DNA of 64,000 nucleotides, from contig LCEC01000001.1 of assembly GCA_000997475.1 (NCBI GenBank), positions 375 to 64,374 of the forward strand, written 5' to 3'. The notes below the pieces were generated by a model. It made no database searches. It was not told the DNA's origin and saw only the letters and a list, made by a program, of their open reading frames with translations. This stretch comes from Parcubacteria group bacterium GW2011_GWB1_42_6. Its GTDB lineage: Bacteria; Patescibacteriota; Minisyncoccia; Portnoybacterales; GWB1-42-6. The stretch's first letter is position 1, and each line of letters opens with the position of its first letter. A program made the position numbers and the translations under genes. Below, one piece after another: positions 3,069 to 64,000 of the stretch.

Positions 3069-3117
3069 AATTCGCCTCATCCCCGGAGTTATTCGTAATT
3101 AACAGGAGAGAAGAAAC

Positions 3118-11015: not shown

Positions 11016-11016
11016 T

Positions 11017-13471: not shown

Positions 13472-13475
13472 AAAT

Positions 13476-16230: not shown

Positions 16231-16287
16231 GCATATTTTTTACAAAAAAGAGATCGGGCGAAATTAATTCGTAATTGGCTAGCAAAT

Positions 16288-23343: not shown

Positions 23344-23760
23344 ATGAAAATAAATTTCAAAGCGAAGGATTTGGAATTGAACGAAGAGATAAAAAATCTC
23401 GTTGAAAAAAAGCTGGAGACTTTGCGAAGATTTTTTCAAGCGAGCGATCCGGAAGCCGTGCTTGCCGAAGTTGAACTTTCGCGGACCACTCTTCATCATC
23501 AAAACGCTCAAGATCTTTTTCGGGCGGAAATAAATCTAACCATCGCCGGAAAAATGTTTCGGGCGGAATCGGAGCAATCCGATCTCCGCACGGCGCTTGA
23601 AGAAACCCGCGATGATTTGGAAAGAGAGATAAATAAATTTAAAACCAAAAGGGAGACTGTTTTTATTCGAGGCGCGCGCAGCATAAAAAAGGCTTTGAGC
23701 CTTTCGCCCTTAGCGCGTTTCAATAGAAAGTCGCAAAATAAAGAAGATGGTACCGAATAA
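23344..23760 (+). CDS. hpf: Ribosome hibernation promoting factor (HPF/RaiA/YfiA family)
   Basis: [31 protein letters not shown].. matches the HPF N-terminal domain. Confidence 0.75.
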
Positions 23761-24304: not shown

Positions 24305-24309
24305 GTGTC

Positions 24310-24392
24310 ACCCTACGGAATTACGGATTGGTACGGATATTACGGATTTGATTTATCTGTATAATCCGTATATATCTGTAATTCAGTAGGGT
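24310..24392. repeat. TACGGAT direct/inverted heptamer array (copy 1)
   Basis: ccctacggaattacggattggtacggatattacggatt..taatccgtatat..gtagggtt. Confidence 0.6.
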
Positions 24393-24452
24393 TATGAAAC
24401 CTCGCCATAATTAACAAGAGTTAATTAACTCAAGAAAACCCGGCGGAGGGCC

Positions 24453-25694: not shown

Positions 25695-25695
25695 A

Positions 25696-25818
25696 TTATC
25701 GCGGATCTGACGCGGATCTTTGGACTGTGCCGCGGATAAACGCGGATTTTCAACCGCTCGGCGCCGTTGACGGATTTCTATTCGTAATTGGTTTTAAATT
25801 CGTAATTAGTGAGGATTC
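25696..25818. promoter_or_regulatory. CGCGGAT x4 array followed by a tandem ATTCGTAATTRG module upstream of the agmatinase gene
   Basis: cgcggatctgacgcggatc..ccgcggataaacgcggatttt .. attcgtaattggttttaaattcgtaattagtGAGGAttcATG. Confidence 0.5.
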
Positions 25819-26763
25819 ATGAATTTTCTCGACATCAATCAATCTTACAAAAACGCGAAATTCGTTGTCGCGCCTTTTGGCTTTGAAGCCACCACGAGTT
25901 ATGGCGGAGGAACGAATAAAGGCCCGGCGGCAATAATCAAAGCCAGCGCCCAGGTTGAGCTTTTCGACGAAGAACTCTGGCGGGAAATCTACAAAAAGAC
26001 AGGCATTTTCACTTTGCCCGCAATAAAACCCGCCAAAAATATTCCCGGCGCCAAGAAACAGATTTCAAAAATAATCTCAAAAATTCTTGCGGATAAAAAA
26101 ATCCCGATTGTTTTGGGCGGCGAACATAGCATCACGCCTATGATAGTTGAAACATTTTCGGATTTCCTCCTCCCCTCGTCGAGGGGAGGCCATGGAGGGG
26201 TAATTAATCCTAAAATTACCTCCCCCGAACCCCTCCCTAAAAAGGAGGGAAGGAATTCCGCCGCTTCTTTCTCCATCCTCCAATTTGACGCCCACGCCGA
26301 TTTGCGCGATGGCTACTTGGGGCAAAAATATTCCCACGCGGCCGCCATGCGCCGATGTTTGGATAATGAGGGTGTTAATTTAGTCCAAGTCGGGATCAGG
26401 AACATCAGCAACGAAAATGATGAGTTGGTTTTTTGGGAAGCAAACAAAGATCGCATTAAAACTTTCTGGGCCAAAGATAAAAAAAATTGGAAGCTTTCCG
26501 AAATTATGGGTTCTCTTAGGGAAAATGTTTATTTAACCTTTGATGTTGACGCTTTTGATTCTTCGATTATGCCTTCAACCGGCACGCCCGAACCCGGAGG
26601 ATTGGATTGGTACGAAGTGATGGATATTTTGCGCGAAGTCGCCAAAACCAAAAACATCATCGGCATGGATTTTGTGGAGCTCGCTCCCATTAAAACCCTT
26701 CCCGCGCCGGATTTTTTGGTCGCCAAGATGATTTATAAGACGATAGGGTATATTTTAAAATAA
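25819..26763 (+). CDS. Agmatinase/arginase-family ureohydrolase
   Basis: Metal-binding motifs GGEHSIT, FDAHADL, SFDVDAFD; carries an in-frame palindromic insertion at 26166-26252. Confidence 0.75.
   Translation: MNFLDINQSYKNAKFVVAPFGFEATTSYGGGTNKGPAAIIKASAQVELFDEELWREIYKKTGIFTLPAIKPAKNIPGAKKQISKIISKILADKKIPIVLGGEHSITPMIVETFSDFLLPSSRGGHGGVINPKITSPEPLPKKEGRNSAASFSILQFDAHADLRDGYLGQKYSHAAAMRRCLDNEGVNLVQVGIRNISNENDELVFWEANKDRIKTFWAKDKKNWKLSEIMGSLRENVYLTFDVDAFDSSIMPSTGTPEPGGLDWYEVMDILREVAKTKNIIGMDFVELAPIKTLPAPDFLVAKMIYKTIGYILK
26166..26252. repeat. In-frame composite of three GC-rich hairpins inside the agmatinase gene
   Basis: cctcccctc-gtc-gaggggagg, ggaggggtaatt..aattacctcccc, ccctccc-taaaaa-ggaggg; the region encodes SSRGGHGGVINPKITSPEPLPKKEGRN. 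Confidence 0.6.
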
Positions 26764-33849: not shown

Positions 33850-34435
33850 CCAGATAAACCACCAGCGTAAGCTGGTGAGTGCGTTTAAAAGCGTAGCTAT
33901 TGTACAATAAAATCACCTCGGGAAAGGAGGTGATTTTAAACATGAGCAGAAGCTATCTGCTGTATCAACTCGACCACTGCACTTACCATTGCAGTTATCA
34001 TATCGTGTGGACACCACGATTCCGCGGTAAGGTTTTGGCCGACAACTATATTAAAGCAGAATTAAAAAGAATGTTCAAACAGATTGCCAACTGGAAAGGA
34101 CTAAGGATTTATGCTTGGCACATCGGAGATGAGCACATCCATCTGCACATCTGCATTCCTCCCAAATATTCTATTGCCTACATCATTCAAATTCTCAAGG
34201 GAAAAACTTCTGGCTGGATCAAAAAGAAAACCAAGAAGTTTCCCAAAGGAGTCCTCTGGGCCAGGGGATACTTTGTTTCGACCGTTGGCATCACGGAAAT
34301 CGCCGTGAAAAAATATATTGAAAACCAGCAACACCATCAAATTGAACTTTCTCAATTAAAACTTTGTTAGCCGGCTGGCGTCAGCCAGCAAAAAGATACC
34401 CCCAGCGTTTAAGCTGGGGGTAGTTCATTTTGGCC
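33850..34435 (+). mobile_element. IS200/IS605-family insertion sequence (tnpA only) with left-end and right-end hairpins
   Basis: Y1 HUH transposase ORF flanked by similar hairpins: accagc-gtaa-gctggt at 33861 and cccccagc-gtttaa-gctggggg at 34401. Confidence 0.55.
33942..34370 (+). CDS. tnpA: IS200/IS605 family Y1 (HUH) transposase TnpA
   Basis: YHCSYHIVWTPRFR and HIHLHICIPP (HuH) motifs. Confidence 0.8.
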   Translation: MSRSYLLYQLDHCTYHCSYHIVWTPRFRGKVLADNYIKAELKRMFKQIANWKGLRIYAWHIGDEHIHLHICIPPKYSIAYIIQILKGKTSGWIKKKTKKFPKGVLWARGYFVSTVGITEIAVKKYIENQQHHQIELSQLKLC

Positions 34436-38733: not shown

Positions 38734-39801
38734 ATGATAAATCCAGTCAATTTAATCAGCGAAATGCTGCAAAATATACCTAATCCGCGCACCAAAGAAG
38801 TGATTGCGCGGCGTTTTGGCTTGAAAGACGGCCAAAGGCACACTTTGGAGGCTATCGGGCAGGACTATAAAATCACCCGCGAAAGGGTGCGCCAGATAGA
38901 AGAAAGCGGTTTGGCTGTTTTAAGGCAGGAAAAAATCGCCGCCAAATTCCAACCGGTATTAGATTTATTGGCCGAACATTTGTCCGAATACGGGGATTTC
39001 AAGCGCGAGGATTCTCTTTTTAATGATTTGAACTTTGTTTGCTTTCCTTCAAAGGAGATTGAACGTTTGCGCGAAGAGGATCCGATTGAGCTGAATCGCT
39101 GCCACGCGGCTTTCTATTTGATTATGACTTTGGGACGCAGATTCGAAAGAGTTCCCGAATCCGATCATTTCCATACCGCTTGGGCCGGCAACAAGGAATC
39201 GGTCAAAAAAGCCAAAAAAACCCTTGATTCGGTAGTTAAATATCTGGACGGCAAAAAAACCGTTCTTAAGGATTTTGAATTGGTCGGGGCCGTAAAAAAT
39301 CTTCATCCGGAATTGTCCGACAAAGCCATTTCTTCTTATATTGACGCTTCAAAAAACATTGAAAGAAATCATCTCGGCCAATACGGAATGGCCAAATGGC
39401 CGGAAATCAGCCCCAAGGGCGTCAAGGATAAGGCTTATATAATTCTCAAAAGCGCCGGGCATCCTTTGCATTTCAGCGAAGTGACCAGTCTCATCAACAA
39501 AAGCATTCCTTCCGCCCGTCCGGCCTACATTCAAACCGTGCACAACGAATTGATCAAAGATCCCAGATTCATTCTGGTCGGCCGCGGACTCTACGCTTTG
39601 TCCGAATGGGGCTATCAGCCCGGAACGGTTCTGGAAACCATCAGCGGGATTCTTAAAAAAGAAGGGCCTCTCTCCAAACAGGAAATTCTCAAAAAAGTTT
39701 TGGAAAAAAGAATCGTCAAAGAAAACACGGTTCTCATCAATCTCCAGAATAAAAAGTTTTTTGAGAGAAATCAGGAAGGAAAATACACCATCAAATCTTA
39801 A
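38734..39801 (+). CDS. Protein with N-terminal sigma-70 region-4-like HTH and C-terminal HARE-HTH (RpoE-delta-like) domain
   Basis: RTKEVIARRFGL..TLEAIGQDYKITRERVRQIE (sigma region 4-like); C-terminal ..PLHFSEVTSLI..FILVGRGLYALSEWGY (HARE-HTH signature). Confidence 0.5.
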   Translation: MINPVNLISEMLQNIPNPRTKEVIARRFGLKDGQRHTLEAIGQDYKITRERVRQIEESGLAVLRQEKIAAKFQPVLDLLAEHLSEYGDFKREDSLFNDLNFVCFPSKEIERLREEDPIELNRCHAAFYLIMTLGRRFERVPESDHFHTAWAGNKESVKKAKKTLDSVVKYLDGKKTVLKDFELVGAVKNLHPELSDKAISSYIDASKNIERNHLGQYGMAKWPEISPKGVKDKAYIILKSAGHPLHFSEVTSLINKSIPSARPAYIQTVHNELIKDPRFILVGRGLYALSEWGYQPGTVLETISGILKKEGPLSKQEILKKVLEKRIVKENTVLINLQNKKFFERNQEGKYTIKS

Positions 39802-41107: not shown

Positions 41108-41186
41108 CGAACTTAATGCTAACTATGCGAACTGCGAAATCTGTTAAACCGGATTTATTTTCGCAGTTCGTAGGTTGGCATTAGAT
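41108..41186. repeat. GCGAA-motif palindrome
   Basis: gcgaacctacgaact ... agttcgtaggttggc inverted repeat with internal gcgaa repeats. Confidence 0.6.
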
Positions 41187-41210
41187 TCGCATATTTCGCA
41201 TCATAATTTT

Positions 41211-43652: not shown

Positions 43653-43728
43653 GAGTTTGCGCTCCCCCTCTTCCTTGCGCGCTTCATATTTATAGCATAG
43701 AATGAGGTAAATTACAAACCCCCGCACC

Positions 43729-43868
43729 TAATCGGCATAATTGAATTCTCTTTCTTCTCTGTCATCCCCGCGCAGGCGGGGATCCAGATTAATTCAGAAC
43801 CTGGATTCCCCCCGTAGCTGCGGGGCGGGAATGACAAATATAAAGCCAATGCCGATTAGGTGCGGGGG
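43729..43868. mobile_element. MITE-like element A with 19-bp perfect terminal inverted repeats
   Basis: TIR CCCCCGCACCTAATCGGCA / TGCCGATTAGGTGCGGGGG; internal multi-hairpin core. Confidence 0.6.
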
Positions 43869-45066: not shown

Positions 45067-45653
45067 TAATCGCGGGAAGGCCGGGGCCCAAAGCGTAATT
45101 TCGGAAATACCCGATTTTGACAGCTAAGCCGCTGTCTTGTCAGCCAATCCGTAACGGAAAGGCAAGCTTTGGGGATTGGGTTTGTGCCGTCCACGGTTTA
45201 TGTTTTTACTCGCTCTATTTTTGGATAGAGTCTCCGGTTGCTTCCCGCGACAGGAAGAACTTTCTTGCATCATGCCTCTGGCAAGGAATGATTTTTTGAT
45301 ATTAGCAAAATAATTTTTATTTGTCAATAAAAAAAACAAGGCTCTCGTTTTGTGAGAGCCTTGGTGCAGAAAGAAGTTTGTCTGGAAAAATTGCTTGCTC
45401 TGACGCATATAATGGGAGGGATAAGGAAAAAGAGAAATAATGAAGATAAGCGCTGATGAATCAGACAAACTCCTTTTTATAAAGAACTGATTGAAAGGGA
45501 AATCGGTATGGAACCGGGAAATTAAGGCTGCGCTCTTTCCCTTTCAATTATATTTTATGCTTTTTTAAAATTTTGTAAATAGAATTATCCACAGGCAATA
45601 TTCTTTTGCGAATTTTTTTTAAAATATAATTATTATAAATATTTTGCCATCTC

Positions 45654-45682
45654 TTGACAAGGTGATCAATAGGGAGTATACT
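45654..45682 (+). promoter_or_regulatory. Near-consensus sigma70 promoter
   Basis: TTGACA, 17-nt spacer, TATACT. Confidence 0.55.
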
Positions 45683-45688
45683 GGAACC

Positions 45689-46270
45689 ATAGGCTAAGGA
45701 TGGAGTCTGAATTTAACCGAAAAGGGCTTGTTTGAGCCAACGGCAGACCCCCTAGCTCGCACATTTATATAAAAATATCAATTAGATCTTCGCCCCGCCT
45801 GCCGGCCGAACCCATCAATTTTATTTAGATGGCTGCGCGACCAGGCATGTGTGGCGAATTCGGGTTTCTTTTTTCGGACAGGTTGCGGGACAGGCATCCC
45901 TTTTAATGACAGCATTGCGATCGTCATTATTACTGACCGAAAATGAACCCGGAAAAATTGGAAGAGGAGAGGAATCCCGCCCGCAGACCTCGCCCCGATG
46001 AAAATATCATCGACGATCCGTCATTGGACGCCCCTCTCCCTTCCGCCTAAAAAGTCCCCGTCATTTTCGTAAGTAAGGGTTGCCGTACCCGATAAGAGTT
46101 TTATTGAAAGAAGCAAAAACCCTCTTATCGGTAAAATAGCAACACCGTTTCAAAATCAGCGACGACGGGGCAAAAAAGAGGAGCCAGTGGATTAAATACC
46201 CATTGGCTCCTCGGAATTATTGTTTCTTAAGACACCGAAGCCCCCCAAAAACACGAGGGGCTTCTTTTTT
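45689..46270 (+). ncRNA. Candidate structured non-coding RNA (~580 nt, class unknown)
   Basis: Bounded by a consensus promoter and a strong terminator (gaagcccc/ggggcttc plus T6 at 46237-46270). Multiple stable hairpins, including a 10-bp stem at ccgataagag..ctcttatcgg. No ORF of 60 aa or more on either strand. Confidence 0.35.
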
Positions 46271-46767
46271 ATCTTTTATGATTTTAAAAACGACGCAATC
46301 CATCACACTCAAGAGTAAAACAGGTTGTGCTCTGATTATTTATTATTGCGGAACAAAATAAAAAGAGCGCTTCGTTTGAAAGCGCCCTCATTTTGATGCA
46401 GGCGAGAAAAAATTTTATCTAAGAATTCTCGAGTTCTCTCAGATATTTTTTCCTCGTCGGGAATTATCGTGTTAGACGACCGCCTTGTTTTCGCATTAGC
46501 GAATGTTTCGAGTTCTTAAGCTCGATCTTTTTAGGCGTTGATAACACTAACTCCCTTTATAACTTTTGGAAAATTTGGATTACCCGTCCTTCCCTTTTGG
46601 ACTTGGGAAGAGTTGGGGTGATGCTCGACTCATACTGCCTCCGTGGAATGGAGTTTTCTTGAGTGAGCGGAAGGTACTGACCGATCGAAAGCCGATAAAA
46701 ACAGCCTTCGATCATATATAGAGATTATAAAATAACGATGAGCTTGTCAAGTCTTTTCAATTTTACA

Positions 46768-46883
46768 CACACCTAGTCAGGATATTTGAATTTAATTTGG
46801 ATAATAAACAAGTTTACTCCCAATGGCTTGTTTGTCTTCGAAGGATTCTTTGAATAAAAAACAATCCTGATTAGGCGCGGGGG
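46768..46883. mobile_element. MITE-like element B, copy 1
   Basis: (c)cacctagtcagga ... tcctgattaggcgcggggg imperfect TIRs; interior is the reverse complement of copy 2. Confidence 0.55.
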
Positions 46884-46937
46884 CAAGGGAAAAGAAATCC
46901 GATTGAACTTTTGAATTTGCCGTGCTAAGATTTTTAT

Positions 46938-49417: not shown

Positions 49418-49530
49418 GTGGATATCTTTATTGCGGAGAAGCGTTTTTTTGGATATAATTATTTAAGAAAATATCGGGCGCGAAAGAATCCTTCGTTTTG
49501 CCGCGCGCGCTTTTGAGTTGTAAATAAACT

Positions 49531-49647
49531 CCCGCACCTAGTCAGGATTGTTTTTTATTCAAAGAATCCTTCAAAGACAAACAAGCCATTGGGAGTAAAC
49601 TTGTTTATTATCCAAATTAAATTCAAATATCCTGACTAGGCGCGGGG
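49531..49647. mobile_element. MITE-like element B, copy 2 (inverted relative to copy 1)
   Basis: cccgcacctagtcagga ... tcctgactaggcgcgggg. Confidence 0.55.
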
Positions 49648-51537: not shown

Positions 51538-51632
51538 TTCTGCGGTGGGGGTTGACGAAAGCGGCTTTTGGGTATAACATTGTAATAAGCTGAAAATCAG
51601 ACAAAAAGCTTTAATTTTAAGACCAGTTCCGA

Positions 51633-51851: not shown

Positions 51852-51960
51852 TTTTCAACCAACCGTGCTAAGCAATCCTTCTTCTTCGATGAAGAGGTTC
51901 CGCGGAAGCAAAGCGGAGCTGACGGTGCGTTTAGCGCGTTTTGTATTGGTTTTTTTCCTC

Positions 51961-52065
51961 ACTAATTACGAATAAATTTACTCCAATTACGAATAATTAT
52001 AGATTAATTGCGAGATGATGCGCTTCATTCGTAATTAGTTCTTAATTCGTAATTGGCGAGGATTC
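51961..52065. promoter_or_regulatory. TTCGTAATT palindromic module upstream of rpmJ
   Basis: Two copies of YYAATTACGAAT, a spacer, two copies of ATTCGTAATTRG, then GAGGATTC ATG. Confidence 0.5.
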
Positions 52066-52179: not shown

Positions 52180-52189
52180 AATCATTTTA

Positions 52190-52262
52190 ACATTTTAGCA
52201 TTTTAGCATTTTAGCATTTGAATTATTGAATTTTGTTAATATGCTAACATGTTGATATGTTA
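52190..52262. repeat. ATTTTAGC x3 array plus inverted TGCTAACATG motifs upstream of rpsM
   Basis: cattttagcattttagcattttagcatttgaatt..tatgctaacatgttgatatg. Confidence 0.5.
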
Positions 52263-52274
52263 AAATGACTAGCC

Positions 52275-52664
52275 ATGCCCAGAATCGCGGGAGTAAATAT
52301 TCCGGATAATAAAGTGATCGTCATCGCCCTCACGTATATTTACGGAATCGGGCGGACTTTGAGCAATAAAATTTTAGCCCAAGCAAAAATCGATCCGGGG
52401 GCGCGGGCCAATAAACTTTCGGCTGATGAAATTAACCGATTGAGAGAAATTATCGAAAAAGGATTGAGAGTCGAGGGGGAATTAAGGCGCGAAAGGATGA
52501 TGAACGTGAAAAGGTTGAAAGATATCGGTTCATACCGCGGGATAAGACATATCAAAGGTTTGCCGGTTCGAGGCCAAAGAACGAAAACAAACACCAGAAC
52601 CGTTCGCGGAAATATCCGCAAGACTATGGGTTCGGGCAGGAAGGCTTCGGCGGAAAAGACATAA
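52275..52664 (+). CDS. rpsM: 30S ribosomal protein S13
   Basis: [26 protein letters not shown]. Confidence 0.9.
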
Positions 52665-53312: not shown

Positions 53313-53392
53313 ACCCTACGGAATTACGGATTAGTACGGATATTACGGATTCAAATTGGATTTATCCGTATATTCGTAAAAATCCGTAAATC
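53313..53392. repeat. TACGGAT direct/inverted heptamer array (copy 2)
   Basis: ccctacggaattacggattagtacggatattacggatt.. first 38 nt almost identical to 24310-24347. Confidence 0.6.
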
Positions 53393-53406
53393 TATAGAAA
53401 ACCACA

Positions 53407-54039: not shown

Positions 54040-54049
54040 TTCGCTCCTC

Positions 54050-54148
54050 ACCAATTACGAATAAATCCAATCCAATTACGAATTAAAGCCGGCTACGAAT
54101 AGTTTTATATTCGTAATTGGTTCCAATTCGTAATTAGCGAGGAAAAAT
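54050..54148. promoter_or_regulatory. TTCGTAATT palindromic module upstream of rpoA
   Basis: ccaattacgaat x2 ... attcgtaattgg ttccaattcgtaattagcGAGGAaaaatATG. Confidence 0.5.
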
Positions 54149-55078: not shown

Positions 55079-55149
55079 TGCCAATCTGCGAATGACACGC
55101 AAATGCCGCAAATTTATTCGTATGCACGCAATTTGCATGCTATTCGCAG

Positions 55150-55184
55150 AATTTGAATAAAATTTGTAAATTGGAATTATATTT
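55150..55184 (+). promoter_or_regulatory. Conserved 34-nt module abutting the rplQ start codon
   Basis: atttgaataaaatttgtaaattggaattatattt immediately 5' of ATG; near-identical copy at 61467-61501. Confidence 0.5.
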
Positions 55185-57873: not shown

Positions 57874-58899
57874 TCAAAAATTTTCCGAAAGATAATAGAA
57901 ATTTTCATTGCCAAAATCGTAATAAATTTGAGGGGATTTGGCGGTGATAAAATCGGCGATATTGCGGCGGTCGCGGCCGTCAAGCTCGATAATTTTTATT
58001 TTATTTTCAATCACAAAGCAAATATGATCGTTGTCCGGATAAAAAATCGCTTGTTCGATTTTTTGGGCAAAACGGGTGATCATTTCTTTCTCGCCCGGCT
58101 TCTTGTAGGGCTGGAGCATTATTTCTTCCGCGTATAGAACCCAAATTTCGCTTTCCGAAAAAAACAGCAATCTTTTGTTATCATTGGAAAATTCCGCGCC
58201 GATGATTCCCGAAGCGATTGATTCAAGAATTTTCATTTCATCGTTTAACAAAAACAGTTCCTTTTGGGGAGTAATGACAGCGAATTTGTTTCGGTCGTTG
58301 GACGCGATAATTTCATAAGAAGAATGTTCCGGCAGGGGATTTTTTGAAATTTGTTCTTTGAGGGAGCCGTTTAAATTTGATCTGTAGAGATTGCGGTTTT
58401 CTTCGGAAATATAAAAAATTTCGTTATCTTTCAAAATCCAGCCCGGGGTGCTGGACGCGGCATTTAAAGCTTGTCCTTGCTTTTTTTTATTGCCGGAATT
58501 TTCCAAAAAATCTTTTATTGTGGTGGTGGCATTTTGGCTTAAAAGTTCGGCTTGCGGATTGGTCGGTATAAGCAAAACGCTTCTTGCTTCAGTGACGAGC
58601 TTGGGAGAAATATTAAGATTTTTTTCCCAGGAATGATAACCTTCCATTTCTATTTTTACGTTATAGGCGCGCGGAGCCAGATGTGAAAAAAGAGAAGGAG
58701 TTCTTCTTTCTTTTTCTCCATCAATAAAGATTTGCGCCTGGTTGGGCGTTGATTTGATATAAAGCCCTCCGGTTTTGGCCAGCCGCCAATTTTTCCAGTC
58801 AAACGAATAACCCGCCGTGTAGAGAATCGTGGGCGGGACGCTTATGAGAAATATAAGCACAAACAGGTAAAAAATCAGCCGTCGTTTGTTTCTGGTCAT
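57874..58899 (-). CDS. Membrane-anchored PEGA-domain protein
   Basis: N-terminal TM, then a PEGA-like segment (TPNQAQIFIDGEKERRTPSLFSHLAPRAYNVKIEMEGYHSWEKNLNI); the ORF-track entry extends to 58935. Confidence 0.45.
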   Translation of the reverse strand: MTRNKRRLIFYLFVLIFLISVPPTILYTAGYSFDWKNWRLAKTGGLYIKSTPNQAQIFIDGEKERRTPSLFSHLAPRAYNVKIEMEGYHSWEKNLNISPKLVTEARSVLLIPTNPQAELLSQNATTTIKDFLENSGNKKKQGQALNAASSTPGWILKDNEIFYISEENRNLYRSNLNGSLKEQISKNPLPEHSSYEIIASNDRNKFAVITPQKELFLLNDEMKILESIASGIIGAEFSNDNKRLLFFSESEIWVLYAEEIMLQPYKKPGEKEMITRFAQKIEQAIFYPDNDHICFVIENKIKIIELDGRDRRNIADFITAKSPQIYYDFGNENFYYLSENF

Positions 58900-59002
58900 A
58901 GGTGAATTATAGCCATGAAACGGCTTAAAAATCAATGTTATATTTTCCTTGCCAGATGTGTTTCTTTAAACTAAGATAAAAGAAAGAGAGGTTGAAATTT
59001 TT

Positions 59003-60271
59003 ATGGATAAATTCATTATAAACGGCGGGCGTCCTCTTGCGGGCGAAATTGAGGTGCGAGGCTCCAAAAACGCGGCTACGCCGATTTTGGCCGCCTGTCT
59101 TTTAACCGAAGAGCCCTGCGAAATAGACAATTTGCCTTTGATCGAGGATGTGTTTAGAATTATAGAAATTCTTAAAAGCATGGGTGTCGAGATTGAATGG
59201 ACCGGCCAAAGAAAAATAAAAGTTCAAGCAAAAAACATTAATCCCGGGCAAATTGATCAGCATAAAGTTTGCCAATTGAGATCGTCGATTTTAATAATCG
59301 GCGGACTTTTGGGCAGATTCGATGATTTCAAAATCGGCCATCCCGGCGGCTGCATTATCGGGAGCCGGCCGGTGGAAACCCATTTTGAAGCTTTGATAAA
59401 ATTAGGCATTAATGTTTCGGAGGAAAACAATTTTTATCAAATAAAAAAGAACGATTCCCAAGATTCCGTTTCCAGAAAAATTGTTTTAAAAGAATTTTCC
59501 GTAACCGCGACGGAGAATGTTTTAATGGCCTCGGTTCTTAGACCCGGGAAAACTATTTTGCGTATCGCGGCGGCCGAACCGCATGTAAAAGAATTGGCCG
59601 TTTTTTTGAATAAAATGGGAGCAAGAATCAGCGGGGTCGGCGCTCATGAAATTGAAATTGAAGGAGTAAAAAAATTAAAAGGCGCCGATCATTTTATTAT
59701 GCCTGATCCGATTGAGGCGGGAACTTTTATTATCGCGGCGGCTGCCACGCGGGGAAAAGTAAGGATAATTAACGCGATTCCCGATCACCTCGATTCGGTT
59801 TTGGAGAAGTTGAGGGAAATGGGAGTTAATCTCTCGGTTGAAAATGGCAGCGTTTCAGTGGGCAGTTCTTCGCGTTTTAAGGCGGCTAAAATCCAGGCCT
59901 TGCCTTTTCCGGGAATTCCAACCGATTTGCAAGCGCCGATAGCTGTTCTTTGCACGCAAGCCGAGGGGACAAGTTTAATCCACGATCCTTTATATGAAGG
60001 TCGGTTTAAATACATAAATGAACTGGTAAAAATGGGAGCCAGCGCCACAATTCTTGATCCTCATCGGGCGGTAATCACCGGACCGTCTTTTTTGTCGGGA
60101 AAAGAAATTACCAGTTTTGATTTGCGAGCTGGCGCCACTTTGATCATCGCGGCGCTGGTAGCCAAAGGCGAATCGCGAATTTCCGAAATTTACCAAGTTG
60201 ACAGAGGGTATGAAAAAATAGAAGAAAGGCTTTCGGCTTTGGGAGCGGATATAAGAAGAGTAAAAGAATAA
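59003..60271 (+). CDS. murA: UDP-N-acetylglucosamine 1-carboxyvinyltransferase MurA
   Basis: MDKFIINGGRPLAGEIEVRGSKNAATPILAACLL.. two-domain EPT fold. Confidence 0.9.
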   Translation: MDKFIINGGRPLAGEIEVRGSKNAATPILAACLLTEEPCEIDNLPLIEDVFRIIEILKSMGVEIEWTGQRKIKVQAKNINPGQIDQHKVCQLRSSILIIGGLLGRFDDFKIGHPGGCIIGSRPVETHFEALIKLGINVSEENNFYQIKKNDSQDSVSRKIVLKEFSVTATENVLMASVLRPGKTILRIAAAEPHVKELAVFLNKMGARISGVGAHEIEIEGVKKLKGADHFIMPDPIEAGTFIIAAAATRGKVRIINAIPDHLDSVLEKLREMGVNLSVENGSVSVGSSSRFKAAKIQALPFPGIPTDLQAPIAVLCTQAEGTSLIHDPLYEGRFKYINELVKMGASATILDPHRAVITGPSFLSGKEITSFDLRAGATLIIAALVAKGESRISEIYQVDRGYEKIEERLSALGADIRRVKE

Positions 60272-60379
60272 AATTTCCAATTATCAATTTTCAATCAATA
60301 TCAAATATTTAATATTGAAAATTGCTTTGCCCTTTGAAACTCAAATTCCGATTTGAGCGAAGAAGGGGATTATTGAAAA

Positions 60380-61402
60380 TTGAAAATTAATAGCTTGTTT
60401 ATAAAAAAAATAGGAATTGACCTGGGAACGGCCAATACCCTGGTTTATGTGCCGGGAAAAGGCATTATCATCAACGAACCTACGGTAGTGGCTGTTTCCA
60501 TCAGCGACAATAAAATTCTGGCGGTAGGCAACGAAGCCAGAGAAATGCTCGGCCGCACACCCGATGCGATTATGGCTTTGCGTCCGATGAAAGACGGAGT
60601 GATTGCCGATTATCGGGTGACGGAAGCGATGCTTCGCTATTTTATAAATAAAACCGCCGGATCCCTGCGTTTTTTCAGGCCGGAAGTCATGGTGGCGGTT
60701 CCCGCGGGAATAACTTCAACTGAAAAGCGCGCGGTGGTGGATGCCACTCTTAATGCCGGCGCCAAAGCGGCTTATGTGGTTAAGGAGCCGGTTTTGGCCG
60801 CTATCGGGGCGGGGATTCCAATTAACGAACCGGCCGGGCATATGATTATTGATATCGGCGGGGGGACTTCGGAAGTGGCCGTGATTTCTTTGGGAGGAAT
60901 CGTGGCTTGCGCTTCGGCAAGAGTCGGCGGCAATAAAATCGATCAATCGATTGCCGAATATATCCGCAAAAAACATAATTTGGCCATTGGCGAAAGAATG
61001 GCCGAAGAAATAAAATTTACCATCGGCTCGGCTCTTCCGCAAAAAGACGAACAGAAAATGGACGTAAGAGGCAGGGATTTAATAGCCGGCTTGCCAAAAA
61101 CGATTGAAATAAAAAGCAACGAAGTCACAGAAGCGATTTCCGAAAATCTGCGCGAGGTGATCGTGGCGATAAAAAGCGTTTTGCAAAATACTCCTCCCGA
61201 ACTTTCGGCGGATATTATCGATCGGGGAATGATTATTTCCGGAGGCGGGGCATTGTTGCGGAATATGCCGGAGCTTATTGAAAAAGCTACCGGTGTTGCT
61301 TGTTACGCGGCCGAAAATCCGCTTTTTTGCGTGGCCAAGGGCGCGGGAATAGCCCTGGAGCATTTGGAAATTTATAAGAGAAGCGTGATGTCGAAGAAAT
61401 AG
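60380..61402 (+). CDS. mreB: Rod shape-determining protein MreB
   Basis: GIDLGTANTLVYV.. actin-like ATPase motifs; TTG or alternative start. Confidence 0.85.
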   Translation: MKINSLFIKKIGIDLGTANTLVYVPGKGIIINEPTVVAVSISDNKILAVGNEAREMLGRTPDAIMALRPMKDGVIADYRVTEAMLRYFINKTAGSLRFFRPEVMVAVPAGITSTEKRAVVDATLNAGAKAAYVVKEPVLAAIGAGIPINEPAGHMIIDIGGGTSEVAVISLGGIVACASARVGGNKIDQSIAEYIRKKHNLAIGERMAEEIKFTIGSALPQKDEQKMDVRGRDLIAGLPKTIEIKSNEVTEAISENLREVIVAIKSVLQNTPPELSADIIDRGMIISGGGALLRNMPELIEKATGVACYAAENPLFCVAKGAGIALEHLEIYKRSVMSKK

Positions 61403-61466
61403 TATGCGAATCGCGCAAATTCATGCGAATTGCGCACATGCGAATAAAATGCGAATCCCATTCGAG

Positions 61467-61501
61467 GCATTTGAATAAAATTCGTAGATTGGAATTATAT
61501 T
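61467..61501 (+). promoter_or_regulatory. Conserved 34-nt module abutting the GT4 start codon (copy of 55150-55184)
   Basis: atttgaataaaattcgtagattggaattatatt immediately 5' of ATG. Confidence 0.5.
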
Positions 61502-62605
61502 ATGACTATTGGCATTAACGCCTCGGCGGCTGTCAAAAAGAATAGAACCGGAGTGGAAGAATACGCTTATCAGCTCATAAAGCATTTGGCGATGATTCCC
61601 GAGTCCCAAAAGCATCGTTTTTTTCTATATTTGCCATCCGCAGTTTTAGCAAAGGAAGGTTTGCCCGACAATGTTTTTGATTTTTCTTTCCCTGAAAATT
61701 TTATAATAAAAAAACTTTGGTGGCCGCTGCCTTTCTTCTGGACGCAAATAAGATTGTCTCTGGAAATGATTTTTTTTGCGCCGGACGTTCTTTTCATCCC
61801 CGTTCATATTTTGCCTTTCATTCATCCAAAAAAATCCATTGTTTGTGTTCACGGCCTTGAATATGAATATCTGCGCGGATTCTATTCTTTTTCCCATCGT
61901 TTGTTTTTGCGTTGGAGCACCAAATTTTCCGCCGCGAAATCTTTCCGGATAATCGCGGTTTCTCAAAATACCAAGAACGATTTGGCAAAAATATATAAGA
62001 CAGATACTGATAAAATAAAAGTGGTAAAACACGGGATTTCCTTTCCCCCTTTAGAAAGGGGGATTAAGGGGGATTTTTTAAGGAAGAAAGAAAAATATAT
62101 TTTATATCTAGGCCGCATCGAAACCAAGAAGAATATCCAAGGAATTATTGAAGCGTATGAAATTCTGAATAACAAATATAGCATTCACCACAAGCTTGTT
62201 TTAGCCGGTTCAAAAGGATACGGCCATAAGAATTTAAAAATACCGAGCGATGTGATTCAGACCGGATTCGTGAGCCAAGAAAAAAAAGAAGTCTTGATGA
62301 ACAACGCCGCAATATTTCTATTTCCCTGTTTTTACGAGGGTTTTGGTTTGCCGATTCTTGAAGCTCAAGCGGCGGGAATTCCCGTCGTGACTTCTTATAA
62401 TTCTTCAATGCCGGAAGTGGCCGGGGAAGGGGCTTTATTTGTTGATCCGCGCAATCCGGCTCAAATCGCCCGGGCCGTTAAAAAAATAATTGACGACAAT
62501 CTCTTGCGTGATAAACTGATACAATCGGGATTTGAGAACATAAAAAAATTTTCTTGGGAAAAATGCGCTCGGGAAACGCTGGATTTTTTAAGCAGCTTGG
62601 AATAG
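61502..62605 (+). CDS. Glycosyltransferase family 4 (GT-B)
   Basis: C-terminal EGFGLPILEAQAAGIPVVT sugar-donor-binding motif. Confidence 0.75.
   Translation: MTIGINASAAVKKNRTGVEEYAYQLIKHLAMIPESQKHRFFLYLPSAVLAKEGLPDNVFDFSFPENFIIKKLWWPLPFFWTQIRLSLEMIFFAPDVLFIPVHILPFIHPKKSIVCVHGLEYEYLRGFYSFSHRLFLRWSTKFSAAKSFRIIAVSQNTKNDLAKIYKTDTDKIKVVKHGISFPPLERGIKGDFLRKKEKYILYLGRIETKKNIQGIIEAYEILNNKYSIHHKLVLAGSKGYGHKNLKIPSDVIQTGFVSQEKKEVLMNNAAIFLFPCFYEGFGLPILEAQAAGIPVVTSYNSSMPEVAGEGALFVDPRNPAQIARAVKKIIDDNLLRDKLIQSGFENIKKFSWEKCARETLDFLSSLE
62041..62075. repeat. In-frame GC-rich palindromic insertion within the GT4 gene
   Basis: ctttccccctttagaaagggggattaagggggat encodes SFPPLERGIKGD. Confidence 0.55.
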
Positions 62606-62616
62606 GAGGATGAGCT

Positions 62617-62799
62617 ATGGAAGAGAAGCAAATAATATCTCCCCATGACGCCGCGGGAAGATGCGAAAAATGTTCCAAAGTAATTTTTGGATGTTGCTCC
62701 GAAGGATTTGCTCTGTGTCCGGATTGCGGCGAACCGGTCAAGCTTGATCCGATAAAGCATCGCGGACCGTGCGGAGGTTCTTTGGAGAAAATCCACTGA
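62617..62799 (+). CDS. Small Cys-rich zinc-ribbon protein
   Basis: 60 aa with CEKC..CC..CPDCG..C pattern. Confidence 0.35.
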   Translation: MEEKQIISPHDAAGRCEKCSKVIFGCCSEGFALCPDCGEPVKLDPIKHRGPCGGSLEKIH

Positions 62800-62804
62800 C
62801 AAGT

Positions 62805-62838
62805 CAAAAAAGGAGCGGAGAATCCGCTCCTTTATTAT
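62805..62838 (+). terminator. Rho-independent terminator
   Basis: Hairpin aggagcgga/tccgctcct plus T-rich tail. Confidence 0.6.
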
Positions 62839-62871
62839 TATAATCGATTAATTTTAAAAAATAATTTGCCC

Positions 62872-64000
62872 GTGAAAATAGCTTTAATCCATGATTTTTT
62901 GATCAGATTCGGAGGAGCGGAGAGGGTGCTTTTGGAATTGGCGCGAATGTTTCCGGAAGCGCCCATTTATACCCTGCTTTATGATAAAGAAAAAATGTCC
63001 CAATGGTTTGAACCGGAAAGGGTAAAAGTTTCTTTTTTGCAAAAATTCCCCCGCTTTTTGCGCCGAAATCATAAATTGCTTTTGCCTTTGATGATAGTGG
63101 CGCCGGAAACCTTTGATTTGCGGGATTTTGATTTGGTTATTTCTTCTTCATCCGCTTATGCCAAAGGAGTAATCACGAGGCCTAAAACCATCCATATAAA
63201 TTATTGCCATAATCCGGCGAGGTTTATTTGGGATTATTCTTTTGAATATTTAAAAGAACAAGAGTTGGGTTTAATAAGCGGAGCTATTTCCAGAATATTT
63301 TTCAGCTATTTTCGCCTTTGGGACCGTTCGGCGAGCAAACGGGTGGATTATTTTATCGCCAATTCCCAATCTACGGCGCGGCGCATCCGGAAATATTACC
63401 GCCGTGATTCAAGAATAATATTTCCGCCTTGCCGGATTCCCCAAAACGGATTTAATGTCTGCGAAAAAAATTTGCAAGACATGGGCGCTGTTTTGCCAAA
63501 TGATTTCTTTTTGATAATTTCCCAGCTCGCTCCTTATAAAAAAATAGACGCGGCGGTTGAGGCTTTTAATAAGCTCGGCTTGCCTTTGATTGTTATTGGC
63601 GATGGTCCGCAAAAAAAATATTTGCAAAAAATTGCCAAATCCAACGTAAAAATCATGGGCTGGCTGGATGACAAAGAAACTTTTCAGTATCTTCGGGGCT
63701 GCCAAGCCTTAATTTTTTCGGGCGAGGATGATTTTGGCATTGCGCCGGTTGAGGCGATGGGTTTTGGCAAGCCTGTTTTGGCGCTAAATCGCGGCGGAGC
63801 ATTGGAAACGGTGATTCCCGGAAAAACCGGAGAATTTTTTGATTCGCCCACGCCCGAAGTCATAGCTGAAGGAGTGCGGCGCTTGCGCGAAAATATGCCC
63901 GAATACGATCCTATGGAAATTCATAACCATGTCAAACAATTTTCGGCGGAGAGGTTTAGAGAAGAGATAAAACAATTTATCGGTGAAAAATATCGATTGG
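62872..64000 (+). CDS. Glycosyltransferase family 4, second copy (3' end lies outside the window)
   Basis: GTG start; IALIHDFLIRFGGAERVLLELARMF N-terminus and ..EDDFGIAPVEAMGFGKPVLA; open to the window end; absent from the ORF track, presumably because it has no stop in the window. Confidence 0.7.
   Translation, partial: MKIALIHDFLIRFGGAERVLLELARMFPEAPIYTLLYDKEKMSQWFEPERVKVSFLQKFPRFLRRNHKLLLPLMIVAPETFDLRDFDLVISSSSAYAKGVITRPKTIHINYCHNPARFIWDYSFEYLKEQELGLISGAISRIFFSYFRLWDRSASKRVDYFIANSQSTARRIRKYYRRDSRIIFPPCRIPQNGFNVCEKNLQDMGAVLPNDFFLIISQLAPYKKIDAAVEAFNKLGLPLIVIGDGPQKKYLQKIAKSNVKIMGWLDDKETFQYLRGCQALIFSGEDDFGIAPVEAMGFGKPVLALNRGGALETVIPGKTGEFFDSPTPEVIAEGVRRLRENMPEYDPMEIHNHVKQFSAERFREEIKQFIGEKYRL

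What the first reader, a model, noticed from the sequence alone, without database searches (positions are those of the whole stretch)
54050..54148. Palindromic TTCGTAATT modules immediately upstream of rpoA, rpmJ and the agmatinase gene
All three modules end with the same layout: ATTCGTAATTRG-N8-ATTCGTAATTRG-Y-GAGGA-N3-6-ATG. That is two direct repeats spaced about one helical turn apart and fused to the SD. The rpoA and rpmJ copies carry two inverted copies (YCAATTACGAAT) 40-60 nt further upstream, giving a roughly 100-bp palindromic architecture. The conservation in front of unrelated genes implies a shared regulatory device, either a transcription-factor operator or an attenuator hairpin. 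Alternatively a promoter-carrying mobile module has been copied in front of genes.
Basis: seen in the sequence. Interest (0 to 1): 0.6.

Follow-up and report, generated by a model that had tools for sequence, protein, structure and literature searches.

The report
Heptamer-built palindromic repeats at gene boundaries
The ATTCGTAATT modules are real and far from random, but the evidence points to copies of a small dispersed palindromic repeat that fills the gap between one gene's stop codon and the next gene's start, in many candidate-phyla-radiation bacteria and also in Bacteroidota, rather than to a transcription-factor operator or a promoter.

Summary
ATTCGTAATT occurs 12 times in the window against 0.45 expected. 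All copies are intergenic, at five loci, and all eight + strand copies lie 11-17 nt before an ATG.

The unit is a tandem heptamer, ATTCGTA-ATTSG. The full module is ATTCGTAATTCG-N5-ATTCGTAATTCGTAG(G); this genome has R instead of C at position 11. The module recurs in at least 19 Patescibacteria and 24 Bacteroidota loci, before S7, L3, L35, IF-2, CTP synthase and similar genes.

It is patchy among relatives: 6 of 80 unbiased loci around rpoA carry it. At 90% RpoA identity the same spacer holds a different variant.

The window has sister families (ATCCGTA, ATTCGCA, octamer CATTTTAG) in the same stop-hairpin-start layout. In those 80 loci, 52% of the 128 same-direction spacers of 50-160 nt fold far better than shuffles, against 2% of coding controls.

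The rpoA and rpmJ copies lie inside an operon that has a conserved sigma-70-like promoter before infA. Their ends pair as anti-SD (CCTCAC) with SD (GYGAGG).

There is no sense/antisense folding asymmetry. Solo copies also follow stop codons.

Best reading: a repeat that multiplies at the DNA level and forms an RBS-occluding hairpin in the mRNA, possibly a translational-coupling device. How it spreads, and whether a factor binds it, are unknown.

The parts
54045..54143 (+). Four-copy palindromic element between rpsD (stop codon 54037-54039) and rpoA (ATG 54149). From left to right it holds TCCTCAC (anti-SD), inverted units at 54051-54062 and 54072-54083, a partial inverted heptamer at 54094-54100, direct units at 54109-54120 and 54126-54137, and the SD GAGGA at 54139-54143.
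   Evidence: Sequence read. Motif hits. RNA fold -35.9 kcal/mol, z -6.7. Identical in 11 strain-level contigs.
51956..52062 (+). Four-copy palindromic element before rpmJ (ATG 52066). It holds TCCTCAC, inverted units at 51962-51973 and 51983-51994, direct units at 52027-52038 and 52045-52056, and the SD GAGGA at 52058-52062.
   Evidence: Fold -34.6 kcal/mol, z -5.8. The left arm is 90% identical to the rpoA left arm (family D5).
25780..25815 (+). Half element: two direct units (25780-25791 and 25798-25809) followed by T and GAGGA, before the agmatinase-family gene (ATG 25819). There is no inverted partner. The spacer upstream carries four CGCGGAT repeats.
   Evidence: No significant fold (z -0.55). 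85% identical over 52 nt to the rpmJ right half (family D16).
3091..3102 (+). Single unit ATTCGTAATTAA, 15 nt before ATG 3118 (capsule-synthesis-like gene) and 22 nt after the upstream stop codon.
   Evidence: No fold.
16267..16278 (+). Single unit ATTCGTAATTGG, 9 nt before ATG 16288 (D-2-hydroxyacid dehydrogenase).
   Evidence: Grouped with the rpmJ and agmatinase right ends (family D8).
53315..53400 (+). Sister element of the ATCCGTA family filling the rpsK-rpsD spacer: four TACGGAT-type units, then ATCCGTA, ATTCGTA and ATCCGTA.
   Evidence: Fold -33.8 kcal/mol, z -6.25.
24310..24392 (+). Second copy of the ATCCGTA-family element (CCCTACGG...CAGTAGGG). It starts 5 nt after the stop codon of the arginine decarboxylase gene. 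Only a 6-codon ORF follows it.
   Evidence: Fold -44.8 kcal/mol, z -7.9. 80% match to the tuf-rpsJ spacer of another Patescibacteria contig, L102.
41115..41210 (+). Sister element of the TTCGCA/GTTCGTAGG family, with two further direct ATTCGCA-type units before ATG 41211 (TraG/VirD4-like coupling protein).
   Evidence: Fold -36.4 kcal/mol, z -6.5.
55085..55184 (+). rpoA-rplQ spacer with ATTCGTA, ATTCGCA and ATTTGTAAATTGG units. Its right half is 81% identical to 61448-61501.
   Evidence: (family D15). Fold z -2.3.
61403..61501 (+). Spacer before the gene at 61502, which matches glycosyltransferase genes in relatives. It holds four GCGAAT units, then ATTCGAGG and AATTCGTAGATTGG.
   Evidence: No significant fold (z -0.5).
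52182..52267 (+). Unrelated-sequence analogue: an array of 4.6 CATTTTAG octamers with its inverted partner. It forms a hairpin that starts 2 nt after the rpmJ stop codon and ends 7 nt before the rpsM ATG.
   Evidence: tandem repeat. Fold -32.9 kcal/mol, z -7.3.
51552..51580 (+). Sigma-70-like promoter before infA, scored by the scan as TTGACG-N17-TAACAT. I read it by eye as TTGACG-N15-TATAAC. It shows that the rpmJ and rpoA modules lie inside a longer transcription unit.
   Evidence: The same TTGAC..TATAAT arrangement precedes infA in L123-L126.

Best explanation
The modules are copies of a short dispersed repeat family built from the heptamer ATTCGTA. The full unit is ATTCGTAATTCG-N5-ATTCGTAATTCGTAG(G), and it is often paired with an inverted copy to give a 75-125-bp palindrome.

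The family multiplies and is homogenised within a genome at the DNA level, by an unknown mechanism. Copies survive where they fill the spacer between a stop codon and the next start codon.

Because the rpoA and rpmJ copies lie inside an operon, they should be transcribed as part of its mRNA (inferred). There the palindrome folds into a long hairpin. Its 5' foot (CCUCAC or CCUAC, an anti-SD) begins a few nucleotides after the upstream stop codon. Its 3' foot is the SD of the next gene (GYGAGGA or GUAGGA), 3-6 nt before the AUG.

The likely consequence is inferred, not shown. The downstream ribosome-binding site is occluded unless a ribosome terminating on the upstream gene, or an RNase cutting the stem, opens the foot of the hairpin. 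That would make the element a translational-coupling or processing device that also makes the insertion harmless.

Half elements and single units, such as those before the agmatinase gene and at 3091 and 16267, would then be remnants or partial copies that only contribute the leader and SD.
For: Shown:
1. Non-random, exact, strictly intergenic copies. The heptamers ATTCGTA, ATCCGTA and ATTCGCA are 85%, 69% and 60% intergenic, against 0-13% for five of six one-base control variants (the sixth, ATTTGTA, is 43% intergenic, 3 of 7) and a 14% baseline.
2. Repeat-family behaviour.
   - 11 of the 12 window copies have R rather than the usual C at position 11, and the internal spacers are alike (GGTTTTAA, AGTTCTTA, GGTTCCA).
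   - Elsewhere the 5-nt spacer is lineage-specific: CGCAG in the Uhrbacteria-type loci and TTAAA in eight Bacteroidota loci.
   - The whole ~120-nt palindrome of L027, L070 and L085 precedes different genes.
3. Patchy spread and fast turnover.
   - Relatives with 71-73% RpoA identity have 0-2 ATTCGTA in 20 kb.
   - 6 of 80 unbiased CPR (candidate phyla radiation) loci have the 10-mer.
   - At 90% RpoA identity the S4-rpoA spacer cannot be aligned and uses ATTCGCA.
4. The same layout is built from unrelated repeats in the window and in other CPR genomes.
   - 52% of 128 co-directional spacers have z < -3, against 2% of coding controls.
   - The main helix starts a median of 2 nt after the stop codon and ends a median of 9 nt before the ATG.
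5. The palindrome includes an anti-SD/SD pair. In other CPR loci CCTAC follows the stop codon by 0-2 nt.
6. A canonical promoter lies upstream of infA.
7. There is no strand asymmetry in folding: 7 against 8 for ATTCGTA elements, and 36 against 41 with G-U pairs 195 against 195 in general. This fits palindromes made at the DNA level.
Against: - The exact 10-12-mer is conserved across deeply separated CPR classes and in Bacteroidota. A purely structural element would not need that.
- Three of the five window loci have units but no hairpin, so the hairpin cannot be the whole story.
- The lack of a sense-strand G-U excess gives no positive sign that the RNA fold is under selection.
- At rpoA the hairpin foot starts 6 nt after the stop codon, so a terminating ribosome would open only 1-3 base pairs. 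At rpmJ the foot is 104 nt from the infA stop codon.
- No target-site duplication, transposase or other spreading mechanism was found.
- In the unbiased set, most hairpin-preceded genes lack an SD (6 of 57). SD occlusion is therefore specific to this family and not general.
- My gene calls in other loci are crude (first ATG of the longest ORFs).
Confidence: 0.5

Rival explanations
1. A purely selfish or neutral DNA repeat, resembling a miniature inverted-repeat element (MITE), a REPIN or a slippage-generated satellite, with no role in expression. Its position at gene boundaries would follow only from genome compactness, and its SD-like ends would be what lets insertions survive.
For: - Patchy phyletic spread, genome-specific variants and fast turnover.
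- No sense/antisense folding asymmetry.
- Symmetric ends.
- Solo double modules face a start codon (19) about as often as they face the 3' end of a convergent gene (17, of which 8 lie within 12 nt).
- Neighbouring spacers in one operon carry near-identical copies (L200 and L191).
Against: - The elements are kept in front of essential, highly expressed genes such as S7, L3, L35, L36, RpoA, IF-2 and CTP synthase, in very small genomes.
- The 10-mers are exact in both arms while the spacers drift.
- No target-site duplication or cognate transposase was found.
- The only Y1 transposase in the window has unrelated hairpins that occur nowhere else in the window.
Confidence: 0.25
2. The 12-mers are binding sites for a sequence-specific protein: either a double-stranded-DNA binder (a global regulator or nucleoid protein, the reader's operator idea) or an mRNA binder of the S1, cold-shock or RRM type, as proposed for TAACTGA repeats.
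For: - Exact conservation of the 10-12-mer in both orientations and across phyla.
- A fixed 17-nt period within an arm in 70 of 117 retrieved modules.
- Units occur without any hairpin.
- MacGregor 2015 (PMC4679880) proposed the mRNA-binder idea for heptamer repeats before start codons.
Against: - No candidate protein was found.
- The sites are absent from close relatives. That would require the factor and dozens of sites to be gained together.
- Different repeat families occupy the same positions.
- The 7-nt sub-period and the 17-18-bp period do not keep sites on one face of the DNA helix.
- The sites lie inside operons, next to stop and start codons, not at promoters.
- For an RNA binder, the inverted copies and the post-stop solo copies would present a different RNA sequence.
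Confidence: 0.15
3. A mobile module that carries a promoter, so that each copy starts transcription of the gene behind it.
For: - The module is always close to gene starts.
- By eye, a weak TTAAAG-N17-TATATT can be read across the loop and first direct unit of the rpoA copy (sequence).
Against: - The consensus scan finds no promoter in or at the modules.
- Nothing conserved lies upstream of the module in 70 aligned cases.
- A -10 element in the second unit would start transcripts inside or after the SD.
- The operon already has a conserved promoter.
- The equivalent positions in the rpmJ and agmatinase copies give no promoter-like match (my reading).
- Only 1 hit in 2.9 million viral contigs.
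Confidence: 0.04
4. A DNA uptake sequence for natural transformation. CPR bacteria are thought to depend on DNA import, and uptake sequences are known to occur as inverted pairs between genes with lineage-specific dialects (this background rests on my own knowledge).
For: - Exact 10-12-mers in both orientations.
- A lineage-specific variant at position 11.
- Inverted pairs in intergenic DNA.
Against: - The strict 17-nt doublets, the heptamer substructure and the complete absence from coding DNA are not typical of uptake sequences.
- The same sequence occurs in Bacteroidota.
- Density is only about 1 per 5 kb.
- Nothing was tested directly.
Confidence: 0.03

Closest known systems
TAACTGA heptamer direct repeats of marine Beggiatoaceae, Cyanobacteria and some Bacteroidetes (MacGregor 2015, PMC4679880)
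   Same: - A heptanucleotide unit in direct repeats.
- Mostly intergenic and in forward orientation within a few nucleotides of start codons.
- Found before ribosomal protein genes among many others.
- No common function among the downstream genes.
- Patchy distribution across phyla that includes Bacteroidetes.
- Mechanism unknown.
   Different: - A different heptamer: TAACTGA occurs once in this window, inside a gene.
- Here the repeats form fixed doublets with a 17-nt period.
- They are usually paired with inverted copies that make a stop-to-start palindrome.
- In CPR they carry the SD.
- Long arrays are the exception in the canonical form.
Cyanobacterial short tandemly repeated repetitive (STRR) heptamers and the heptamer repeats near start codons in Nostoc PCC 7120 (preprint 10.1101/2022.06.06.494920; the STRR background is my own knowledge)
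   Same: - Tandem heptamers close to or overlapping start codons, with suspected effects on transcription or translation.
- The cyanobacterial hits in my scan (for example L044) are ATTCGYN heptamer arrays that run up to the ATG.
   Different: - They are arrays rather than 2+2 palindromes.
- The sequences differ.
- None of the cyanobacterial hits has the canonical 32-nt module.
REP/BIME elements and REPIN doublets mobilised by RAYT transposases in proteobacteria (own knowledge)
   Same: - Extragenic and multi-copy.
- Inverted doublets that fold into long hairpins.
- Located inside operons.
- Families are genome-specific.
- A GTAG-containing end.
   Different: - The basic unit is not itself a palindrome.
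- GTAG lies at the outer 3' end of each arm rather than 5' of the hairpin.
- No RAYT gene was found.
- The same sequence is shared across phyla, which REPs are not.
Correia/NEMIS miniature insertion sequences of Neisseria (own knowledge)
   Same: An inverted-repeat element of about 100-150 bp, co-transcribed with neighbouring genes, folding into a hairpin that RNase III cuts, and able to change expression of the downstream gene.
   Different: - Correia elements have a TA target duplication and promoter-forming ends. Neither is seen here.
- They are confined to one genus.
Translational coupling through long-range RBS occlusion, for example rpmI-rplT in the E. coli IF3 operon or the coat and replicase genes of phage MS2 (own knowledge)
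   Same: The downstream ribosome-binding site is paired with a sequence at the end of, or just after, the upstream reading frame, so upstream translation unmasks it.
   Different: - Those are single, gene-specific structures, not a dispersed repeat.
- Coupling is inferred here and was not measured.

Membership tests
Heptamer direct repeats before start codons (TAACTGA/STRR type) | A unit of 7 nt repeated head to tail | tested here: met
   ATTCGTA-ATTCGTA doublets in most retrieved loci. In the window the second heptamer is degenerate (ATTRGYG).
Heptamer direct repeats before start codons (TAACTGA/STRR type) | Intergenic, in forward orientation, within a few nucleotides of the start codon | tested here: met
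   All eight + strand copies in the window lie 11-17 nt before an ATG. The modal distance in other loci is 9-12 nt. However, solo copies also follow stop codons.
Heptamer direct repeats before start codons (TAACTGA/STRR type) | Patchy distribution across phyla | tested here: met
REP/REPIN with a RAYT transposase | A basic unit that is itself an imperfect palindrome of 20-40 nt | tested here: not met
   The 12-mer and the 32-nt double unit are direct repeats, not palindromes. Half elements do not fold.
REP/REPIN with a RAYT transposase | A cognate Y1 (RAYT) transposase gene flanked by the repeats | tested here: not met
   The only Y1_Tnp gene in the window (33942-34370, E 2.8e-31) has IS200-type hairpins unrelated to the module. 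The rest of the genome could not be searched.
REP/REPIN with a RAYT transposase | Inverted doublets, extragenic and multi-copy | tested here: met
MITE | Terminal inverted repeats | tested here: met
   TCCTCAC-YAATTACGAAT pairs with ATTCGTAATTRG-YGAGGA.
MITE | Target-site duplication flanking the element | tested here: inconclusive
   No shared flanking bases appear at the two full copies in the window or in the left and right flanks listed. No empty site in a close relative was available.
MITE | An autonomous element with the same ends | not testable with these tools
   This needs whole genomes. None was seen in the loci held.
Transcription-factor operator | A fixed position relative to a promoter, plus a cognate regulator | tested here: not met
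   There is no promoter at the modules. The modules lie inside an operon that has its own promoter. No regulator was identified among the 48 window proteins I scanned; about 15 others, including 1-2322, 4565-14690 and 57874-63999, were not scanned.
Intrinsic terminator or attenuator | A G+C-rich stem followed by a U-run | tested here: not met
   The stems are A+U-rich and are followed by GAGGA and the start codon. The terminator scan reports nothing at the modules.
Sigma-70 promoter | -35 and -10 hexamers with 16-18 nt between them | tested here: not met
   No conserved upstream sequence in 70 aligned modules.
Known RNA families (ribosomal protein leaders, riboswitches) | A match to an Rfam covariance model at its gathering score | tested here: not met
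   No hits in the window. Only chance-level hits appear at E up to 10 (S4-Flavobacteria leader, E 7.8, on the - strand).
TIGR arrays (Tas guide RNAs of CPR and phages) | Box C/D motifs flanking spacers in a tandem array next to a tas gene | tested here: not met
   The feature is taken from preprint 10.64898/2026.09.09.750476. By my reading of the sequence, the module has no RUGAUGA or CUGA boxes, and no tas gene appeared among the scanned proteins.

The most novel reading that the evidence does not exclude
The ATTCGTAATTCG-N5-ATTCGTAATTCGTAG module would be the cis element of a so far undescribed gene-boundary system shared by CPR bacteria and a set of Bacteroidota. A conserved sequence-specific factor, protein or RNA, would recognise the 12-mer on DNA or mRNA. 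Together with the stop-to-start hairpin it would control intercistronic processing or termination-reinitiation in operons. The many genome-specific repeat hairpins in CPR ribosomal operons would then be variants of one general mechanism.
Probability: 0.15. Interest if true: 0.8.

Novelty: new variant of a known kind. Interest (0 to 1): 0.55.

Why it matters
Heptamer repeats sitting on ribosome-binding sites have been reported in cyanobacteria, giant sulfur bacteria and a few Bacteroidetes, but they have never been explained.

This case adds three things:
- a well-defined 32-nt module with exact conservation in two unrelated groups, Patescibacteria and Bacteroidota;
- a palindromic form whose ends are an anti-SD/SD pair;
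- the observation that about half of the longer intercistronic spacers near rpoA in CPR genomes are stop-to-start hairpins built from short repeats.

If these hairpins couple or gate translation, they would be a main layer of gene control in organisms that have very few regulators.

If they are selfish, they show how repeats can colonise essential operons of minimal genomes without harm.

Either way the module is short and sharply defined, so binding, reporter and metatranscriptome tests are straightforward to design.

Tried and rejected
- **Rfam, gathering threshold, whole window:** nothing. At E up to 10 around the modules only chance-level hits appeared.
- **Promoter and terminator scan:** nothing at the modules.
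- **tRNA scan of 32 loci:** no RNA gene lies behind the modules that lack an ORF.
- **Literature search for the sequence strings:** only primers. Searches for CPR or Parcubacteria intergenic repeats and hairpins found nothing relevant.
- **TIGR arrays:** considered and rejected because box C/D motifs are absent.
- **IS200-like transposase at 33942-34370 as a possible RAYT:** rejected. Its flanking hairpins (CCAGCGTAAGCTGG type) are unrelated to the module and occur nowhere else in the window.
- **Viral contigs:** one hit only, a heptamer run with related inverted copies.
- **Strain-level contigs, to look for presence/absence or copy-number polymorphism:** all 11 were identical at the rpoA module, so nothing could be learned about mobility.
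- **Alignment of the S4-rpoA spacer with the relative at 90% RpoA identity:** not homologous beyond the flanks.
- **Strand test for RNA-level selection:** no asymmetry.
- **Ideas I could not test or that did not hold up.** These rest on sequences recalled from memory, not on a tool:
  - complementarity or mimicry to 16S rRNA (530 loop, 3' minor domain);
  - T-loop mimicry;
  - LexA, CtsR, NarL or Spo0A-type boxes;
  - stop codons in all three frames (the module covers only two frames).
- **First attempt at the spacer-folding statistics:** it timed out and was rerun with 25 shuffles.
Full report
**1. What is in the window**

The window comes from Parcubacteria group bacterium GW2011_GWA1_42_7, a member of the candidate phyla radiation (CPR). 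Its RpoA is 100% identical to that record. G+C is 42.6%.

Exact ATTCGTAATT occurs 12 times, against 0.45 expected. The eight + strand copies are at 3091, 16267, 25780/25798, 52027/52045 and 54109/54126. Each lies 11-17 nt before an ATG. The genes behind them are a capsule-synthesis-like protein, a 2-hydroxyacid dehydrogenase, an arginase-family (agmatinase) protein, L36 and RpoA. The four - strand copies (51964, 51985, 54053, 54074) are the upstream arms of the rpmJ and rpoA modules.

All 12 copies are intergenic, although my gene map makes the window 86% coding.

- The period of the direct units is 17-18 bp, not one helical turn.
- The upstream arms have a 21-bp period.
- The inverted repeat extends to TCCTCAC...GYGAGGA, so it includes the Shine-Dalgarno sequence (SD).

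**2. The unit is a heptamer, and the module is widespread**

I scanned one genome per species for ATTCGTAATT-N6-10-ATTCGTAATT.

Two kinds of hit appear:
- Runs of the heptamer (AATTCGT)n, in Prevotellaceae, Saprospiraceae, Ignavibacteria and cyanobacteria.
- A canonical module, ATTCGTAATTCG-N5-ATTCGTAATTCGTAG(G). This is [ATTCGTA][ATTCGnn]nnn[ATTCGTA][ATTCGTA]G with a 17-nt period.

The flanking CG and CGTAG were not required by the search pattern, so their presence shows that these hits are related.

Canonical modules number 27 in 19 Patescibacteria loci, 27 in 24 Bacteroidota loci and 5 in 3 unlabelled loci (59 in all). There are none in the cyanobacterial or other loci. The Patescibacteria include Azam-, Moran-, Uhr-, Staskawicz-, Nealson- and Portnoybacteria and Saccharibacteria. 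Several Bacteroidota contigs are 0.5-1.7 Mb long. That is larger than a typical CPR genome (own knowledge), so they are not misbinned CPR DNA.

Further copies in the same loci, more than 200 nt from the selecting match, are again mostly intergenic: 62 against 12 in Bacteroidota and 4 against 0 in Patescibacteria.

The genes behind the modules are diverse housekeeping genes. They include S7, L3, L35, CTP synthase, a class II aminoacyl-tRNA synthetase, MurA, GatC, MraZ, IF-2 and RNase Y.

**3. It behaves like a repeat family, not like a conserved site**

Eleven of the 12 window copies have R where other genomes have C at position 11. The internal spacers of the three double units resemble each other.

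In other lineages the spacer, which appears to be unselected, is lineage-specific. It is CGCAG in the Uhrbacteria-type loci and TTAAA in eight Bacteroidota loci.

The family is patchy:
- Four syntenic relatives with 71-73% RpoA identity have 0-2 ATTCGTA in about 20 kb.
- In 80 loci chosen only by rpoA similarity (341 kb), 6 have the 10-mer and 9 have three or more ATTCGTA.
- At 90% RpoA identity (L120) the S4-rpoA spacer has the same length but cannot be aligned. It uses ATTCGCA with inverted GCGAAT copies.
- Eleven strain-level contigs are identical at the module.

**4. Sister families and a general layout**

The window itself carries related heptamers in the same arrangement.
- ATCCGTA elements lie at 24310-24392 and 53315-53400. 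The first also matches the tuf-rpsJ spacer of another Patescibacteria contig at 80%.
- ATTCGCA/TTCGCA elements lie at 41115-41210, 55085-55184 and 61403-61501.
- An unrelated octamer array (CATTTTAG) with its inverted partner precedes rpsM.

ATTCGTA, ATCCGTA and ATTCGCA are 85%, 69% and 60% intergenic. Five of the six one-base control variants are 0-13% intergenic. The sixth, ATTTGTA, is 43% intergenic (3 of 7) and is itself a weak member of the family, as 22095 and 23198 show.

Six of these spacers fold with z between -5.8 and -7.9.

In the unbiased CPR sample, almost every spacer of the ribosomal operon in loci such as L191, L200, L171 and L178 is a palindrome built from a genome-specific short repeat. 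Numbers for that sample:
- Of 128 co-directional spacers of 50-160 nt, 52% have z < -3, against 2% of coding controls.
- In the 57 most strongly folded spacers, the main helix starts a median of 2 nt after the upstream stop codon and ends a median of 9 nt before the ATG. It spans 85% of the spacer.

The ATTCGTAATT palindromes are therefore one sequence family within a general stop-hairpin-start architecture.

**5. Promoter, operator or RNA?**

A sigma-70-like promoter precedes infA. The scan scores it as TTGACG-N17-TAACAT at 51552-51580. The same arrangement is conserved in four relatives. No promoter-like site lies at any module, and nothing upstream of the module is conserved. The rpmJ and rpoA modules are therefore intercistronic parts of a longer mRNA.

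The operator idea fits poorly for these reasons:
- The sites are tied to stop and start codons.
- They have a 7-nt sub-period.
- They are replaced by unrelated repeats at equivalent positions.
- No regulator emerged from the Pfam scan of 48 window proteins. About 15 called ORFs were not scanned.

At the RNA level the palindrome pairs CCUCAC with GYGAGG, so the SD sits in the stem. In other CPR loci CCTAC follows the stop codon by 0-2 nt. A terminating ribosome would then open the anti-SD/SD pairing. That is the classical logic of translational coupling.

Four observations limit this reading:
- Sense and antisense strands fold equally well: 7 against 8 for this family, and 36 against 41 with G-U pairs 195 against 195 in general. 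There is no signature of selection on the transcribed strand.
- Three of the five window loci have units without any fold.
- Solo double modules face a start codon (19) about as often as they face the end of a convergent gene (17).
- The foot of the rpmJ hairpin is 104 nt from the infA stop codon.

**6. Interpretation**

The weight of evidence favours a dispersed repeat that is generated and homogenised at the DNA level and survives at gene boundaries. Its palindromic form necessarily acts on the mRNA as an RBS-occluding hairpin that joins stop to start. Whether this is used for coupling, processing or stability, or is merely tolerated, cannot be decided here.

The exact conservation of the 12-mer in two unrelated phyla is the one feature this reading does not explain. 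It keeps alive the possibility of a sequence-specific factor or of horizontal spread.

**7. Comparison with what is known**

The closest described phenomenon is the set of TAACTGA heptamer repeats of Beggiatoaceae, Cyanobacteria and a few Bacteroidetes. These also sit just before start codons, also occur in ribosomal operons, are also patchy across phyla, and are also unexplained (PMC4679880). Heptamer repeats near start codons in Nostoc are a second case.

REP/REPIN elements and Correia-type MITEs resemble it in being extragenic, hairpin-forming and co-transcribed. Their defining features were not met: a palindromic unit, a RAYT gene, or a target duplication.

I found no description of this module, or of CPR intercistronic repeat hairpins, in the searchable literature or in Rfam.

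**8. Verdict**

This is a real, non-random feature that is ordinary in kind (a dispersed intergenic repeat) but unusual in detail. I rate it a new variant of a known, unexplained kind, of moderate to good interest.

Noticed in passing
window 33855-34425: An IS200/IS605-type element. The Y1 transposase gene is at 33942-34370 (Pfam Y1_Tnp, E 2.8e-31). Similar hairpins flank it: CACCAGCGTAAGCTGGTG on the left and CCCCAGCGTTTAAGCTGGGG on the right. Its own SD lies inside a small hairpin (AATCACCTCGGGAAAGGAGGTGATT), as I recall for IS200. The hairpins are unrelated to the ATTCGTA modules.
   Followed up: partly
window 43720-43733(-), 43854-43867(+), 46869-46882(+), 49530-49543(-), 49634-49647(+): A second dispersed intergenic motif, GAYTAGGYGCGGGG. 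It has 5 copies against 0.04 expected. Two pairs are in inverted orientation. The copies lie before the efp, mnmA-like, alaS and GlxA-like genes.
   Followed up: partly
window 52182-52267: An array of 4.6 CATTTTAG octamers plus its inverted partner forms a perfect-looking hairpin (z -7.3) between rpmJ and rpsM. A related array precedes rpsM in L124. A weak Rfam Alpha_RBS hit (24.2 bits, gathering score 38) overlaps 52204-52307.
   Followed up: partly
window 45409-46937: About 1.5 kb without a long ORF and without any Rfam match. It contains several G+C-rich hairpins.
   Followed up: no
window 57880/57881, compared with L127 6734-6829: Some strain-level contigs (L127, L131, L133) carry 96 extra bases at the 3' end of the - strand PEGA-domain gene. 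The gene product is 361 aa there and 341 aa in the window. This is a strain or assembly variant.
   Followed up: partly
window 23344-26763: A polyamine/translation cluster: ribosome hibernation factor (HPF), pyruvoyl arginine decarboxylase, a deoxyhypusine-synthase-like protein and an agmatinase. Repeat elements sit in two of its spacers. The element at 24310-24392 is followed by a 6-codon ORF (24394-24414).
   Followed up: no
window 38734-39801: A 355-aa protein with a Sigma70 region 4 domain at its N-terminus and a HARE-HTH domain. This is an unusual combination.
   Followed up: no
window 22055-22112 and 23158-23215: Another repeat pair, 72% identical over 58 nt, ending in ATTTGTAATTTGGAAATT. 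That ending is a one-base variant of the motif. The pair lies before the murB and HPF genes.
   Followed up: no
window 25703-25760: Four direct CGCGGAT heptamers in the spacer upstream of the agmatinase module. As RNA they could pair with AUUCGU through G-U pairs, but the predicted fold does not use them.
   Followed up: partly
L200 503-3433; L191 2499-3496; L147 881-973: Other CPR genomes carry near-identical palindromic elements of about 95 nt in successive spacers of the same ribosomal operon. The rpoA-upstream family CGCTGAT/TCAGCGT is shared by L147 and L191.
   Followed up: partly
window 53407 versus 53449: The public gene call for S4 (196 aa) starts 42 nt downstream of the first ATG. 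The longer form begins MARLTEAKCRKCRR, which looks like a normal S4 N-terminus. If that is right, the repeat element ends 6 nt before the true start.
   Followed up: partly
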